A stretch of DNA of 64,000 nt. Source: the human T2T-CHM13v2.0 reference genome, Homo sapiens. Made by a program: the position numbers and the translations under genes. The stretch lies in assembly GCF_009914755.1 (NCBI RefSeq), contig NC_060925.1, one strand, 5' to 3'. Every line of letters begins with the position of its first letter. Within the stretch, counting starts at the first letter, position 1. The notes below the pieces were generated by a model. It searched no databases. It saw nothing but the letters and a program-made list of their open reading frames with translations, and was not told where the DNA came from. Below, piece by piece: positions 40,706 to 53,300 of the stretch.

Positions 40706-43700
40706 AAATATTCTACAGGGCAATAAAAATATAACTTTTAAGATAATATTTTCTGCTGCTCAGAAATCCTTTGGTGGACCTATTAGAAAATGTTTCAGTA
40801 TGACATTGAAAAAATATGGTTATCTTTTTGTCCTATTTCCACATTTTAGATAATTTTTCTAAGTAGTGAAGTATCCATTTGTTTAAAGTGACAGAGGAAA
40901 AGAGCACAGAATCAGGAAACCATGGGATGTTCTAGAATTTTATCAGTGAAGAAACCTGAAACCTGAGGTTACTAGGGAAAATATAAGGACCTGCCCATAC
41001 CTTCTTTCTATCGCCAGGGATTCCTAAATGTCTATCCCAAGGGATACCAACACACAATAGTTTTCCTATCATGTGTTGAATGTTGGTTTAACATCAAAAT
41101 TTATTTTTATCTCCAAGAATAGGATGGCTCTATTTGATATTTTGCATTGAATATTTACTAAAAGCAAAATAAATGCCTGAAAATTAATAATTGCCCCTAT
41201 TCACCGCATCATTTTCATAATAACTATTGGTATAAAGTTGAGTATACTATTGTTGGTTTTTCAATAAATAATATAAAGTACAGGTATATGTTTATCAATA
41301 CATAGAATAAAGGTGTATATGTACACAAGTACGTATTTGGATTTTTAATTTTTTATCGATACAAAATACTTTAAACTTTATGAGGTTATATGTGAGTATT
41401 TATTATAGGCATAGAATGTATAATGGTCAGATCAGAATCTTAGGGATATCCGTCACTCCAAATACTTATCATTTTCGTGTGTTGGTAAAATTTTAAGTCC
41501 TCTCTTGTAGCTACTTTGAAATATACAATACATTGTTGCTAACCATATTCACCCTACTCTGCTATCTAATATTGTGACTTGCTTGTTCTAACTGTATGTT
41601 TGTACCCATAACCAACCTCTCTTTATCCCCTCCTCCCACCCACACACTGTTTCCATGCTCTGGTATCTATCGTTCTTTATCTCCATTGGATCAGGTTTTT
41701 GAGCTCCTACATATTAGTGAGAACATCTGTCATCTATTTTTCTGTGTCTGGCTTTATTTCACTTAACATAATAACCTCCAGTTTCATCCATGCTGCTGAA
41801 AATGACATCATTCTTTTTTATCAATGAATAGTATGCCACTGTGGATATATACCACAGAAAAACCTTATCCATTTTTCTACAATGGATAATTAGGTTGATA
41901 CCGTATATTTGCTATAGTGAATAGTGCTGTGATAAACATGTGAGCGCAGGTATCCCTTGGATGTACAGATTTATTTTTCTGTGGATAAATATCCAGAAGT
42001 AGGATTCTTAAATCATATGGTAGTTCTATTTTTAATTTTTGCAGAACTCGCCATACTGATTTCCATAGTAGTACCAATTTACATACTCACCAACATTGTA
42101 TAAGAGTTCCGTTTTCTCCTTATCTTCTCCAACATGGTTTTTTTTTTTTTTGGTCCTGATAGCCATTCTAACTGGAGTAAGATAATATCTCATTGTGTTT
42201 TTGATTTGCATTTCCCTGATGCTTAGTGATATTGAGCATATTTTTCATATACCTATTGGCCATTTGTATGCTTCTTTTGTGCAATGTCTGTTCATGTCTT
42301 TAGCCCAATTTTAATGAGTTTTTTTAATTGTTCAGTTGTTTGAGTTGCTTGTATGTTCTGTATATTAGTCCATTATTAGATAAATAGTTTGCAGATATTT
42401 TATTCCATTTAACAAGTTGTTGATAGTTTCTTTTGCTGTACAGAAGCTTTTTAGTTTAATATAGTTTCATTCCCTTATTTTTGTTAGAGTTGTTTGTGCT
42501 TTTTAGTTCTTAGACATGAAATCTTTGCCTAGACCTAAAACACCTTTGAAGTATTTTTCCTGTTGTTTTTCTACCTAGTTTAATACTTTCAGGTCTTATG
42601 TTTAAGTCTTTAACCCATCATGGGTTGATTTTTGTATGTGAGGAGAGATAGGCATCCATTTTCAATCTTCTGTATTCAGATATCCAATGTCTCCTAGTAC
42701 CATTGATTGAAGATAGTGTTCTTTCCCAAGAGTAGGCTCTTGGTGCTTTTAAAAATAATCATTTAGATGTAAGTATATGGATTCATTTCTGGACTCTATC
42801 CTGTTCCATTAATCTCTGTGTCTGTTTCTTTACCAATATCCTGCTGTTTGGGCTACCTTTGTAATATATTTTGAAGTCAGGTAATGTGATACCTCCAGTT
42901 TTGTTCTTCTTGCTCAGGATTGCTTTGGCTATTTGGGGTCTTTTTGGGCTCCATACAAATTTTAGGATTACTTTCTCTAATTCTGTGAAAAATGATGTTA
43001 CTATTTTGTTAAGGATTGCATTGCATCTGTAGATTTCTTTGAGGAGCATGCTCGTTTTCAATGACATTAATTCTTTTGATCCTTGAGTATGGGATGTCTA
43101 TTTGTTTGTGTCATCTTTAATTTCTTTCATCAGTATTTTGTAGTTCTCCTGGTAGAAATATTTCACTTCCTTGGTTAAGGTTACAATCTATTGTATATGA
43201 GATTGCCTTGATTTCTTTAGCTAGCTCAATATAATGTATAGAAATGCTCCTGATTTTTGAATGCTGATTTTGTGTCCTGCAACTTTATTCAATTTATTTA
43301 TAGTATTGAGGAGACTTTTGGTGGAGCCTTAGTTTTTTACAGAAATAAAATCATATTATCAGTAAAAAGGGACAATTTGACTTATACTTTTCCAATTTGG
43401 TTGTCTTTTAATTTTTTCTCTTGCCTTATTGCTGCTGTGGCTAGCCCTTCCACTATTGAATAGTAGTGGTGAAAGTGGGTATTCTTGTATTGTTACAGAT
43501 CTTAGAGGGAAACTTTCAGCTTTTCCTCATTCAGTATAATGTTAGCTGTGAGTTTCTTATATAGGGCCTTTATTTTCTTAACTTGTATTTAAGGTTCAGG
43601 GGTACATACTGCAGGTTTGTTATACAGATAAGTTGCAAGTCATGGGGGATTGGTATAGACATTATTTCATCACTCAGAAATAAGCATAGTATCTGGTAGG

Positions 43701-50304: not shown

Positions 50305-53300
50305 TATATATGGCATTTATTGCTTTGAGGTAAGATTCTTCTATTCTTAGTTTGCTGAGTTTTCATCATGAATAAATGTTGAATTTTATCAAATATGTTT
50401 TCTGCATTTATTTATATGGTCATATGGTTCTGTCCTTCATTCTTTTCATGTGATGTATCACATTAATTGATTTGTGTATATTCCAACATCTTTTTATCCC
50501 TGGTACAAATCCCACTTGGTTATGCTGTTTTGTTTGTTTTTGTTTTTGATACGCTGTTGTATACAGTTTGCTAGTATTTCTTGAGAATGTTTGTGTCTCT
50601 CTTCATCTGTGGTATTGGCTTGTAGTCTTTTCCTTGCTGTGGTCCTGTTTGGTTTTGGTATCAGGGTGATGCTGGTCTTGGAGAATAAGTTAGGGAGAGC
50701 TCCTTCCATTTCAATGTTTTAAAAATAGTTAAGGAGTATTGGTATTATTTCTTCTTTATATATTTGGTAGAATTCAGCTGTGAATCCATCTGGTCCTGGG
50801 ATTTTGTTTGTTGAAAGACCTTATTTCTGATTTAATTTTGCTACTCATAATTGGTGTGTTCAGATTTTTCATTTCTTCCTGACTCAATCTTGGTAGGTTG
50901 TATGCTTCTAGAAATGTATCCATTTCCTTGAGGTTTTCCAGTTTGTTAGTGTATAGTTGCTCCTAATAGTCTCTGATGATCTTTTGTAATTTTGATTTTC
51001 TTTCTTTCTTTTCTTTTCTATTTTCTTTTCTTTCCCATTTCTGAGTTTGTTTATTTGGGTCTTTTCTCTTCTTTTCTTGATTAGTCTAGCTAGAGGTTAG
51101 TCAATTTTGCTTGTCTTCTGAAAAACCAACTGTTTGCTTCACTGATTCTTTGTATTATATTTTTAGTCTCTATTTCATTTAATTCCGCTCTGATCTTTAT
51201 TATTTTCTTCCTTCACTAATTTTGTGGGGATTTTTGTTGTTATTCTGTTTCCTTGATGTGCATTATTAAGTTGTTTATTTAAAATTGTCCTACTTTTTTG
51301 ATATAGGCATTTATTGCTATAAACTTCCCTCTTAGCACTCCTTTTTCTGTGTCTTACAAGTTTTGAAACGTTGTGTTTCCATTTTCATTTGTTTCAAGAA
51401 AATTTTAAATGTCCATCTTATTTTTTAAATTGAGCCAATGGTCATTTAGAAACATGTTGTTTAACTTCAGTGTATTTGTATTTTTTCTGAAGTTTTCCGT
51501 AATGTGAATTTCTGAATGTGAATTTCTGATTTTATGCTAATCTGGTCTGAGAAAATACTTGGTATAATTTTAATTTTAAAATATTTTTACACTTGTTTTG
51601 TGGCCCAACATATGGTCTATCTTGAAGAATTTTTATATGTTGATGAGAATAATATGTATTCTGCAATTGTTGGATAAAATGTTCTGTAAATGTTTCTTAG
51701 GTCTATCCAGTCTAGAGTCCCATTTAAATCTAATGTTTCTTTGTTGATATTCTGTCTAGATAATCTGTATAATGCTGAGAGTGGGGTGTTGAGGTCTCTC
51801 ACTATTATTTTATTGGAGTCTATCTCTCTCTTTAGATTTAGTAATCTAGTAAGTCTCTCTCTTTAGATATAGTAATATTTACTTTATGAATTGAAATTCT
51901 CCATTGTTGAGTTCATATATATTTACAACTTTTATATCCTCTTGATCTCTTTATCATTATATAGTGACCTTCTTTGTCATTTTTTAAAAAATTGTTTTGG
52001 ACTTAAAGTCTGTTTTATCTGATAACCGTATAGATACTTCTGCTTGCTTTTGGTTCTGTTTGTGTGAAATATCTTTTTCCTTTTCTTTACTTTGAGTCTA
52101 CATGTGTCTTTTCAGGTAAAGTTTTTTTTTTTTTTTTTTTTTTTTTTTTTCTGCACATGGTTGGATCATGTTTCTTTGTTCAGCCAGTCTCTATCTTTGA
52201 AGTGAGGAATTTAATCAAGTTACATTCAAGGCTATTATTTCTATGTGATCTTTTTTACTATCATATTACTTTTATTTGATTTTTGTTTTTAATATTATTT
52301 GTTCCTTTCATTTTCTCTTATTGTTTGTCATAGTGATTTGGTGGTATACTGTAGTGGTAGCATTTGAGGCCATTCTCTTTCTCATTGTGTGTTTGGTTTA
52401 CCACTGAATTTTATACTTTTGTGTATGTTCTTGATTATAAATGTCATCCTTTTGCTTCTAAGCTTAGGACTCTCTCAAGCATTTCTTGTAGGACAGGTCC
52501 AGTCGTGATAAATTCCTTCAGCAGTTGCTCATTTGGAAAGACTTTATTTCTTGTTCATTTATGAAAGATAATTTTTAAAAATATATCCTTGGGTGACATT
52601 TTTTTTTCAGCACTTTGAATGTGTCATTTCATTCTCTCCTTTCCTGCAAGGTTTCTGCTGAGAAATTTTCTGTCAGTCTGATGAGAGTTCTTTTATAGGT
52701 GACTAGATGCTTTTTTCTTGCTGCTTTTAGTTTCTTGTCTTTTACTTTGTCTTAGTAAAAGACAATGTGGTATGTTTAACCACAATGTGGTATGAAGATG
52801 ACCATTTTGCATGATATCTGTTTGGGGATTTGGGGGCATTCTCTGTGTGGAAGTCTAGATGTCTTACTCAACTTGGGAAGTTTTAAGCTAATATTTTATT
52901 AAATAAATTTTCTAACCCTTTCATTTTCTCTTCAACTTTGGGGATACCAATAATTTGAATATTTGGTTGCTTTATATTGTCCTAAATGACACAGTGCTTG
53001 GCTTTTCTTTCTTTATTTTTTTTCTTTACTTTTGCTTGTCTGGATTAATTCAAAACACTTGTTTTCAAGTTCTGAGTTTTTTTTGCTGCTTGATTAGATT
53101 AATATATTGTTAAATTAAGATAGTACATCTATTGTTGAAGCTTTCAATTGCGTTTTATATTTTATTTATTCTTTATTTCCTGATTTCTGTTTGGTTCATT
53201 TTAAAGAATATCTAACTGATAAATTTTTCATTTATATTCAGAATTACTTTTCTGAATTTGTTGTATTTTTTTTAGAACTCTCTTGTATCTCATTGAGCTT

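What the first reader, a model, noticed from the sequence alone, without database searches (positions are those of the whole stretch)
43558..50321. Fossil KRAB-ZNF/L1 chimera: a spliced KRAB zinc-finger mRNA 5' end and a near full-length L1 inside one pair of TSDs
Seen: the host L1MA ORF2 is cut at TATATAGGGCCTTTATT (43558-43574) and resumes at TATATATGGCATTTATT (50305-50321), a 15/17 TSD, so everything between is one insertion. On the minus strand it reads 5'->3': an 80-nt leader (50304-50225, ATG at 50230-50228 in frame with KRAB), a KRAB-A exon of exactly 127 nt, a KRAB-B exon of 95 nt, about 130 nt of antisense old L1, then an L1PA14/15-like element with ORF1, ORF2 and 3' end in the same sense. 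Established: KRAB-A (127 nt) and KRAB-B (96 nt in the ZNF91-type primate clade) are separate exons, so their direct fusion means a spliced RNA intermediate. KRAB-ZFPs of this clade repress retroelements through TRIM28/KAP1. Inference: an L1 in the KRAB-B to zinc-finger intron of a ZNF gene was transcribed from that gene's promoter and retrotransposed with the spliced upstream exons (spliced 5' transduction). The alternative is an RT template switch from L1 RNA onto a ZNF transcript. The ORF track misses this because of stops, and its 50139-50369 ORF is in another frame. I cannot tell whether it is already annotated as a ZNF pseudogene.
Basis: partly seen in the sequence, partly recalled or inferred. 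Interest (0 to 1): 0.9.

Follow-up and report, generated by a model that had tools for sequence, protein, structure and literature searches.

The report
Fossil KRAB zinc-finger/L1 chimeric retrocopy
A decayed copy of the spliced front end of a KRAB zinc-finger gene sits directly upstream of a nearly full-length L1 retrotransposon between one pair of target-site duplications, which is a further example of a recently catalogued kind of gene/L1 chimera and has no sign of present function.

Summary
On the minus strand, one 17-bp duplication of an older L1 encloses five things in order. First come a ZNF exon-1 leader, KRAB-A (127 nt) and KRAB-B (95 nt), joined exon to exon. Then come 98 nt from the KRAB-B/zinc-finger intron of ZNF91-clade genes, a run of 12 A, and 11 ambiguous bases. 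Last is an old L1 that lacks the start of its 5'UTR.

- The 98 nt are not antisense L1. They are a cryptic intron-3 exon.
- The in-frame ATG is not the canonical start codon.
- The L1PA14/15 label was not tested.

The mechanism is not settled. I give it about 0.45. It matches the published RAP1GDS1/L1PA2 case. The A12 run is absent from 18 of 18 paralogues, and CCCTATA after it also occurs in the 3' duplication. These two features keep two rivals alive: two sequential insertions at one site (0.3) and an RT template switch (0.2).

The class is already in print (Law and Burns 2025/2026: 17 human cases, including ZNF681/L1). This locus is not among those 17 rows. Verdict: new member of a known kind, modest interest.

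The parts
50305..50321 (-). 5' copy of the 17-bp target-site duplication (AATAAATGCCATATATA), the end of the upstream half of the host L1
   Evidence: overlaps the same 17 alignment columns as 43558-43574 in 12 of 12 uninterrupted relatives of the host L1
50225..50304 (-). Leader of 80 nt. It is homologous to the upstream part of exon 1 of ZNF91-clade genes and ends at the position of an internal donor (ctgcag|gtattggg in other copies). The usual ATG-bearing end of exon 1 is absent.
   Evidence: alignment with 8 other retrocopies. L006 shows the same skip. No other genome match as a whole.
50098..50224 (-). KRAB-A exon, 127 nt
50003..50097 (-). KRAB-B exon, 95 nt (96 nt in gene locus L016), joined directly to KRAB-A
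49905..50002 (-). Cryptic exon of 98 nt, derived from the intron between KRAB-B and the zinc-finger exon
   Evidence: 10 paralogous hits, all in ZNF clusters; a pyrimidine tract, and AG in some paralogues, lies just upstream of where homology starts. C2H2 arrays lie 3.0 and 6.3 kb downstream in 2 of 3 loci; the profile of 10 paralogues aligns to 50005-49901.
49893..49904 (-). Uninterrupted run of 12 A, preceded by TT
   Evidence: Absent from 18 of 18 paralogues, which read c-aaaaactatg at this place.
49882..49892 (-). 11 ambiguous bases, CCCTATACTTT. They could be ZNF intron, a partial third copy of the target site, or filler.
   Evidence: 9/11 in register with 3 paralogues. CCCTATA is identical to part of the 3' TSD copy; the stretch lies inside the envelopes of both profiles.
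43575..49881 (-). Old L1 truncated inside its 5'UTR, with ORF1, ORF2 and a 3' end. The poly(A) tail is reduced to 2-4 A.
   Evidence: the profile of 15 other copies aligns from 49881 at model position 183 of 498. Transposase_22 at 48865-48590, Tnp_22_dsRBD at 48130-47969, RVT_1 at 45987-45415.
48134..48525 (.). Unrelated repeat of about 390 bp inserted in L1 ORF1, between its two ORF1 domains
47036..47329 (.). Alu-like insertion in the 5' part of L1 ORF2
   Evidence: matches many loci at 73-87%. Masked in the hub table at 47027-47322. The name Alu is recalled, not tested.
43558..43574 (-). 3' copy of the target-site duplication (AATAAAGGCCCTATATA), where the host L1 resumes

Best explanation
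A single L1-mediated insertion placed a chimeric ZNF/L1 RNA copy into an older L1. The divergence fits a very rough age of 35-55 million years.

Most likely route:
1. A sense-oriented L1 that had lost the start of its 5'UTR lay in intron 3 (KRAB-B to zinc-finger exon) of a ZNF91-clade gene.
2. Transcription started at the ZNF promoter.
3. Exon 1 (short form, internal donor), KRAB-A and KRAB-B were spliced together.
4. KRAB-B was then spliced to a cryptic acceptor about 120 nt upstream of the L1.
5. The transcript ran on through the L1 to the L1's own polyadenylation site.
6. The L1 proteins made from this RNA copied it into the new site.

Shown: the spliced structure, the intron-3 origin of the spacer, the truncated but otherwise near-complete L1, and the single enclosing TSD.

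Inferred: that the L1 sat in the parent intron, and that both parts arrived together.

The element is now dead. The KRAB frame has four stops, and the L1 carries two later insertions and many stops.
For: (1) One real 17-bp TSD encloses both parts.

(2) There are three exon-exon junctions, and canonical splice sites flank the KRAB-A and KRAB-B exons in all 6 gene loci examined. The leader aligns to ZNF exon 1.

(3) The 98-nt spacer has 10 paralogues and more, all in ZNF clusters. In 2 of 3 loci examined it lies upstream of the C2H2 array and downstream of the KRAB exons on the same strand. Homology starts exactly behind a long pyrimidine tract, and AG stands there in L028, L029 and L030.

(4) The 11 bases next to the L1 match the paralogous intron in register. 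The match is 9/11 in 3 paralogues and 8/11 in 3 more. A match of 9 or better is seen at 4 of 4821 offsets, and that count includes the in-register ones.

(5) The L1 is near full length. About 5.6 kb of L1 sequence remains once the two later insertions (about 0.7 kb) are set aside, and it lacks at least about 180 nt of the 5'UTR that 15 other copies have. This fits a promoter-compromised element driven from outside.

(6) Law and Burns report 17 such insertions. They are mostly near full length, and several carry a short intronic piece between the last exon and the L1. For RAP1GDS1/L1PA2 a cryptic acceptor lies 15 bp upstream of the source L1 (sections read; Table S5 read).

(7) Window-specific changes at consensus sites are similar in the two parts. 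KRAB has 14/183 and the L1 5'UTR/ORF1 has 76/675. Transversions are 7/183 against 34/675.
Against: (1) A12 lies between the spacer and the L1. All 18 paralogues read c-aaaaactatg there. Under this model 7 of 13 bases must have changed, 6 of them to A, or an indel pair must have kept the register. The run looks like a poly(A) tail.

(2) CCCTATA follows A12 and is identical to part of the 3' TSD copy. That 7-mer occurs only 3 times in 128 kb of window sequence counting both strands. The C is a derived state of the 3' copy, because none of the 12 host-L1 relatives has C there (10 have A).

(3) No locus in this genome joins the spacer to an L1. None of the paralogues scored is split at that point. 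Only 40 candidates were scored in each.

(4) The cleavage site GC/AATA is not the canonical TT/AAAA.

(5) The divergence of the KRAB part (7.7%) is lower than that of the L1 part (11.3%), though not significantly so by my rough estimate.
Confidence: 0.45

Rival explanations
1. Two sequential insertions used the same endonuclease site. One was a processed copy of a short polyadenylated ZNF isoform (exon 1, KRAB-A, KRAB-B, cryptic terminal exon, poly(A)). The other was an independent L1. Either the L1 came first and the ZNF copy landed in its 5' TSD copy, or the ZNF copy came first and the L1 landed in its poly(A) tail or 3' TSD copy. The 'single TSD pair' would then be a misreading of three copies of one target.
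For: A12 sits exactly where a poly(A) tail would be. After it comes CCCTATA, identical to the 3' TSD copy including its derived C. Read as a third target copy, AAAAAAAACCCTATACT matches the 17-mer at 12 of 17 positions. That is within what the locus-wide divergence allows. Of the 14 window-specific changes in the KRAB part, 11 are to A, which would help turn AATAAAGG into A8. Poly(A) tails and used endonuclease sites are known preferred L1 targets (established knowledge, recalled).
Against: The internal copy lacks AATAAAGG, so three substitutions or a deletion are required. The in-register 9/11 match of the same bases to the ZNF intron would then be chance. An independent L1 insertion is only rarely near full length (recalled). 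The two parts have indistinguishable ages. No canonical polyadenylation signal lies 10-30 nt upstream of A12. The nearest candidate is TATAAA, 37 nt upstream.
Confidence: 0.3
2. A single TPRT event with a template switch. The L1 reverse transcriptase copied L1 RNA almost to its 5' end. It then jumped to a spliced ZNF transcript, either onto its poly(A) tail or onto an internal site, and copied it to the 5' end. No L1 ever lay in the ZNF gene.
For: The layout fits: one TSD, same orientation, and the cellular RNA copy on the 5' side. A12 at the junction fits a jump onto a poly(A) tail. Table S5 of Law and Burns holds an RPL21 mRNA, poly(A) and 22-nt filler followed by L1 within one TSD. The absence of a source locus is expected under this model. 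For most of their 17 cases those authors likewise found no intronic source and discuss RNA recombination.
Against: The model needs a short ZNF isoform polyadenylated at a site without a good signal. Both the TSD-like and the intron-like reading of the 11 junction bases would then be chance, unless the jump was to an internal site, in which case A12 is again unexplained. L1 parts of template-switch chimeras are usually strongly 5'-truncated, and this one is not.
Confidence: 0.2

Closest known systems
RAP1GDS1/L1PA2 chimeric insertions (Law and Burns, bioRxiv 10.1101/2025.02.02.635956; Cell Genomics 2026, PMC13174262)
   Same: Spliced upstream exons of a host gene, then a short intronic piece behind a cryptic acceptor, then a near full-length L1 with a defective 5'UTR. 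All are in one orientation inside one TSD.
   Different: There the source L1 still lies in the intron, several progeny exist, and the intronic piece is 15 bp. Here no source or sibling was found, the piece is 98 nt, and A12 lies at the junction.
ZNF681 exon 1/L1 chimera, hg38 chr3:94441985-94449213 (Table S5 of the same paper)
   Same: The 5' exon of a chr19 KRAB zinc-finger gene is fused in sense to a long L1 within one TSD.
   Different: That case carries only exon 1 plus a 26-nt piece and untemplated bases, with no KRAB exons.
Template-switch chimeras such as U6/L1 and RPL21 mRNA/L1 (the Buzdin-type chimeric retrogenes are recalled, not read)
   Same: Two RNA copies lie head to tail in one TSD. 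Poly(A) and filler can lie between an mRNA part and the L1.
   Different: Their L1 parts are mostly short. Here the cellular part is a 5' fragment of a gene ending in an intronic exon, not a full mRNA.
Ordinary ZNF91-clade processed pseudogenes (L002, L003, L005, L007, L008, L009)
   Same: Exon 1, KRAB-A and KRAB-B are joined without introns, at 78-83% identity to the window copy.
   Different: They continue from KRAB-B into exon-4-like sequence (C2H2 motifs were detected downstream in 3 of the 6). The window copy continues into an intron-3 segment and an L1.

Membership tests
KRAB box (Pfam PF01352) | Profile match above the curated cutoff | tested here: met
   60.2 bits against 20.4, profile positions 2-42 of 42, with 4 stops read as X
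mRNA/L1 5'-transduction chimera (Law and Burns class) | The non-L1 part maps to the first exons of a gene, spliced, in sense relative to the L1 | tested here: met
mRNA/L1 5'-transduction chimera (Law and Burns class) | One TSD flanks the non-L1 part and the L1 together | tested here: met
   17 bp, 15/17 identical, at the break of a host L1 that is continuous in 12 of 12 relatives
mRNA/L1 5'-transduction chimera (Law and Burns class) | Both parts arrive at the same time in a multi-species alignment | not testable with these tools
   Only the human genome is held. Divergence of the two parts is statistically indistinguishable, which is weak support only.
mRNA/L1 5'-transduction chimera (Law and Burns class) | No second TSD or poly(A) tail between the parts | tested here: inconclusive
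   A12 plus CCCTATA at 49904-49886
mRNA/L1 5'-transduction chimera (Law and Burns class) | L1 endonuclease motif TT/AAAA at the cleavage site | tested here: not met
   the site reads GC/AATAAA. Table S5 also lists non-canonical sites, so this does not exclude membership.
Cis 5' transduction from an intronic source L1 | A source L1 in the parent intron, directly behind the transduced intronic piece | tested here: not met
   None of the paralogous loci found is split by an L1 there. Their junction stretches are shown for 18. No other locus carries the junction. The source may have been lost, as for most published cases.
Processed pseudogene with its own insertion | Poly(A) tail followed by its own TSD copy | tested here: inconclusive
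   A12 is present. Only 7 of the 17 target bases follow it, and AATAAAGG is missing.

The most novel reading that the evidence does not exclude
An L1 that had lost the start of its own 5'UTR used the promoter and spliced leader of a KRAB zinc-finger gene to retrotranspose. That gene belongs to the family that silences L1 through its 5'UTR. Such captures may also recur from the chr19 cluster. There are three candidates: this locus, the published ZNF681/L1 insertion, and an unresolved KRAB-A/KRAB-B/L1-5'UTR junction at T2T chr4:78534984-78535585. The chr4 copy uses the same short exon 1 and shows about 8 bases of the same cryptic exon. If so, KZNF genes, which are rich in intronic L1s and thought to be active where L1 mobilises, would be preferred escape routes for promoter-dead L1s.
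Probability: 0.25. Interest if true: 0.5.

Novelty: new member of a known kind. Interest (0 to 1): 0.3.

Why it matters
The locus adds one old, structurally rich example to the short list of gene-exon/L1 chimeras. The published list has 17 in hg38. This example carries two coding exons and a cryptic intronic exon, so its RNA intermediate can be read in detail.

It also shows the limit of single-genome inference. A 19-base junction can be read in three ways, and only orthologous loci can settle whether the structure arose in one event or two.

The link to KRAB zinc-finger genes is a curiosity, not a function. Nothing suggests that the locus is expressed or selected. No gene is annotated there, the KRAB frame has four stops, and the L1 frames are broken.

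Tried and rejected
- The spacer as antisense L1. Rejected: the tail has no significant match to any L1 in the 64-kb window (best E 0.034), and its genome hits are only in ZNF clusters.
- The 11 junction bases as L1 5'UTR. In my own by-eye comparison with the profile consensus printed, they match at 4/11 ungapped and 6/11 with a gap, so this reading has no support.
- Sibling insertions with the same junction. None found.
- A surviving source locus. None found. Only 40 of 2065 candidates were scored, and many of those were Alu hits.
- Naming the parent gene. Not possible. The best KRAB-A identities are 88-89% to several chr19 and chr7 loci, and the leader has no other match.
- TSD detection by the repeat finder. 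The pair is not among the 20 families shown, because its exact seeds are shorter than 7.
- Dating to separate the two parts. The difference is not significant.
- Earlier findings of this scan.
- The chr4 KRAB/L1 locus. It is too rearranged to interpret, and no TSD or poly(A) was recognised.
- The L1 subfamily name and the host label L1MA. No repeat library was at hand, so neither was tested.
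Full report
WHAT IS THERE (minus strand, 5' to 3')

An older L1 ORF2 is the host. It breaks after AATAAATGCCATATATA (50321-50305) and resumes with AATAAAGGCCCTATATA (43574-43558).

I fetched 101-bp stretches from 12 of the 39 other genome hits to the upstream flank. I chose them from the top of the list among hits whose alignment reached the end of the query. All 12 run straight through AATAAAGGCCATATAT[G/A]A, and both window flanks overlap on these 17 columns. So the 17-bp target-site duplication (TSD) is real, and everything between the two copies was inserted.

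The repeat would not be convincing alone. The 7.1-kb region holds at least 60 direct-repeat families of 15 nt or more, and this pair is not among the 20 that the tool shows.

THE ZNF PART (50304-49905)

- KRAB identity. Translating 50230-49990 with X at four stops gives a KRAB box (Pfam E 1.5e-16). It is closest to the solved ZNF93 KRAB domain (E 6.3e-21).
- Gene loci. A genome search finds KRAB-A and KRAB-B separately in chr19 and chr7 ZNF-cluster loci at 83-89% identity, about 500-1100 bp apart. In all 6 gene loci inspected the exons are flanked by cag|G...GG|gtgagg and acag|GT...CAG|gtaggtgag.
- Window copy. KRAB-A (50224-50098, 127 nt) abuts KRAB-B (50097-50003, 95 nt; 96 nt in gene locus L016, where I counted it).
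- Leader. The 80-nt leader has no other genome match as a whole. It does align to the upstream part of exon 1 carried by other ZNF retrocopies, and it ends where they have ctgcag|gtattggg. The 3' part of exon 1, which holds the usual ATG, is skipped here, as it is in one other copy, L006. The in-frame ATG at 50230-50228 therefore lies in sequence that aligns to that donor region and is probably fortuitous.
- 5' end. The window copy starts about 45 nt downstream of the 5' ends of L002, L007 and L009.

THE SPACER (50002-49905)

The spacer is not antisense L1. It has no significant match to the rest of the window (best E 0.034).

- It has 10 genome matches at 74-83% identity. Seven are on chr19, one is in the chr7 ZNF cluster, one is on chr16 and one is at chr1:246.6 Mb. 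A second search with a paralogue found more on chr19.
- Where KRAB exons were also found nearby, the matches lie 7-17 kb downstream of them on the same strand.
- In 2 of the 3 loci where I fetched the next 10 kb, an array of 15 or 16 C2H2 motifs starts 6.3 or 3.0 kb further on. The third locus showed none within 10 kb.

The spacer is therefore intron-3 sequence. Homology begins exactly behind a pyrimidine tract of about 30 nt, and three paralogues (L028, L029, L030) have AG at or next to the boundary. I read it as a cryptic or alternative 3' splice site. The RNA intermediate thus had three splice junctions.

THE L1 PART (49881-43575)

- A profile built from 15 of the 29 other fetched copies of this 5'UTR type aligns from 49881 onward. 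It starts at model position 183 of 498, so the other copies extend at least about 180 nt further 5'.
- ORF1 domains lie at 48865-48590 and 48130-47969, and the RT domain at 45987-45415.
- An unrelated repeat of about 390 bp splits ORF1 (48134-48525). An Alu-like element lies at 47036-47329.
- The tail is only 2-4 A before the TSD.

THE JUNCTION IS THE CRUX (49904-49882)

The junction reads TT, then A12, then CCCTATACTTT, then the L1. Three readings compete.

(a) Intron sequence. All 18 paralogues aligned read gaatac-aaaaactatgcctctatatttt(c)cag. Counted ungapped from the anchor, the 11 bases match 9/11 in three paralogues and 8/11 in three more. A match of 9 or better occurs at only 4 of 4821 offsets, and that count includes the in-register ones. 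Against this reading, A12 replaces 13 bases of which 7 differ, 6 of them to A. No paralogue has a run longer than A6.

(b) A partial third copy of the target. CCCTATA is identical to part of the 3' TSD copy, including a C that none of the 12 host-L1 relatives has (10 have A). The 7-mer occurs 3 times in the window counting both strands. Against this reading, the AATAAAGG that should precede it is missing.

(c) A poly(A) tail plus filler, as in the published RPL21/L1 case.

By my own rough likelihood estimates (inference, not a tool result), (a) and (b) are each favoured a hundred-fold or more over random filler for the 9-11 bases themselves. Each then pays a similar penalty for the A-run or for the missing 8 bases. 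The junction cannot decide.

MECHANISM

I favour a single event at about 0.65 overall. That model has the ZNF promoter, spliced exons, a cryptic acceptor, and read-through into an adjacent intronic L1 that supplies the polyadenylation site and the proteins.

Reasons:
- One TSD encloses both parts.
- The spacer comes from intron 3.
- The junction bases match the intron in register.
- The L1 is near full length but truncated in its 5'UTR.
- The case closely parallels RAP1GDS1/L1PA2 and several other rows of Law and Burns' Table S5 that carry a short intronic piece between the last exon and the L1.

A template switch onto a polyadenylated short isoform gets 0.2. Sequential insertion at one endonuclease site gets 0.3.

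Divergence does not separate the parts. Window-specific changes at sites where at least 80% of relatives agree are 14/183 in KRAB and 76/675 in the L1. The KRAB count used 10 retrocopies and 9 gene loci; the eleventh contiguous locus, chr3:104.06 Mb, was not fetched. The L1 count used 23 of 29 copies; L040, L041, L045, L050, L051 and L056 were dropped for split hits. Transversions are 7/183 against 34/675. With a recalled neutral rate of about 2e-9 per year, this suggests very roughly 35-55 million years.

WHAT IS KNOWN

- Law and Burns. I read the abstract, sections 8-10, 24 and 25 of the preprint, passages of the journal version, and all 17 rows of Table S5. They describe this class. It includes a ZNF681 exon-1/L1 chimera.
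- None of the 17 rows lies on chr1 near this locus. No coordinate beginning 1879-1883 occurs in the four held tables. My hg38 position of about 188 Mb is an estimate from recalled assembly offsets.
- Their pipeline needs alignable flanks and more than 75% transcript coverage of the non-L1 part. A locus inside an old L1, with an intronic spacer, could fail both conditions. Its absence from their list therefore says little.
- A further search for KRAB, LINE-1, 5' transduction and processed pseudogene found nothing on this locus (listing only).

OTHER KRAB-A/B CONTIGUOUS LOCI

There are 11 such loci, and I examined 10.
- Six continue into exon-4-like sequence and are ordinary processed pseudogenes. 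C2H2 motifs were detected downstream in 3 of the 6.
- Three (chr2, chr20, chr8) continue into the start of intron 3.
- One (chr4) continues, after about 8-10 spacer-like bases, into an L1 5'UTR of a different type. That locus is rearranged and I could not resolve it.

VERDICT

This is a new member of a known kind, a dead fossil of modest interest.

Noticed in passing
L006/L063/L064 = T2T chr4:78534285-78538807: A second KRAB/L1 juxtaposition. It reads: an old L1 5'UTR in sense, the same short form of ZNF exon 1, KRAB-A, KRAB-B, about 8-10 bases like the start of the cryptic exon, about 350 nt that I read (from recall, not tested) as L1 5'UTR of another type, then antisense L1 ORF2/ORF1. I recognised no poly(A) or TSD. 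The locus looks rearranged.
   Followed up: partly
L004 (chr2:83.22 Mb), L010 (chr20:17.24 Mb), L011 (chr8:127.71 Mb): Three dispersed copies in which KRAB-A and KRAB-B are joined but KRAB-B runs on into ..aggtgagagtgaatgaa.., the start of intron 3 as seen in gene loci. They look like retrocopies of transcripts that retained intron 3.
   Followed up: no
window 48134-48525: A repeat of about 390 bp is inserted between the two ORF1 domains of the L1. It also lies within about 0.4 kb of two of the intron-3 paralogues (L027, L028) and occurs in L009. The family was not named.
   Followed up: no
window 45193-45239: A 9-bp unit (TGTCATTTC on the plus strand) is repeated about four times in tandem inside L1 ORF2. 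In the L1 frame it reads as repeated EMT.
   Followed up: no
window 50003-50224: Of the 14 window-specific substitutions in the KRAB exons, 11 are to A on the minus strand (G>A 6, T>A 4, C>A 1). This is a marked directional bias in this AT-rich region.
   Followed up: no
L013, L016, L020 (gene loci on chr7 and chr19): Intron 3 of these ZNF genes begins gtaggtgagagtga, with a second gt 4 nt into the intron. This could be an alternative donor.
   Followed up: no
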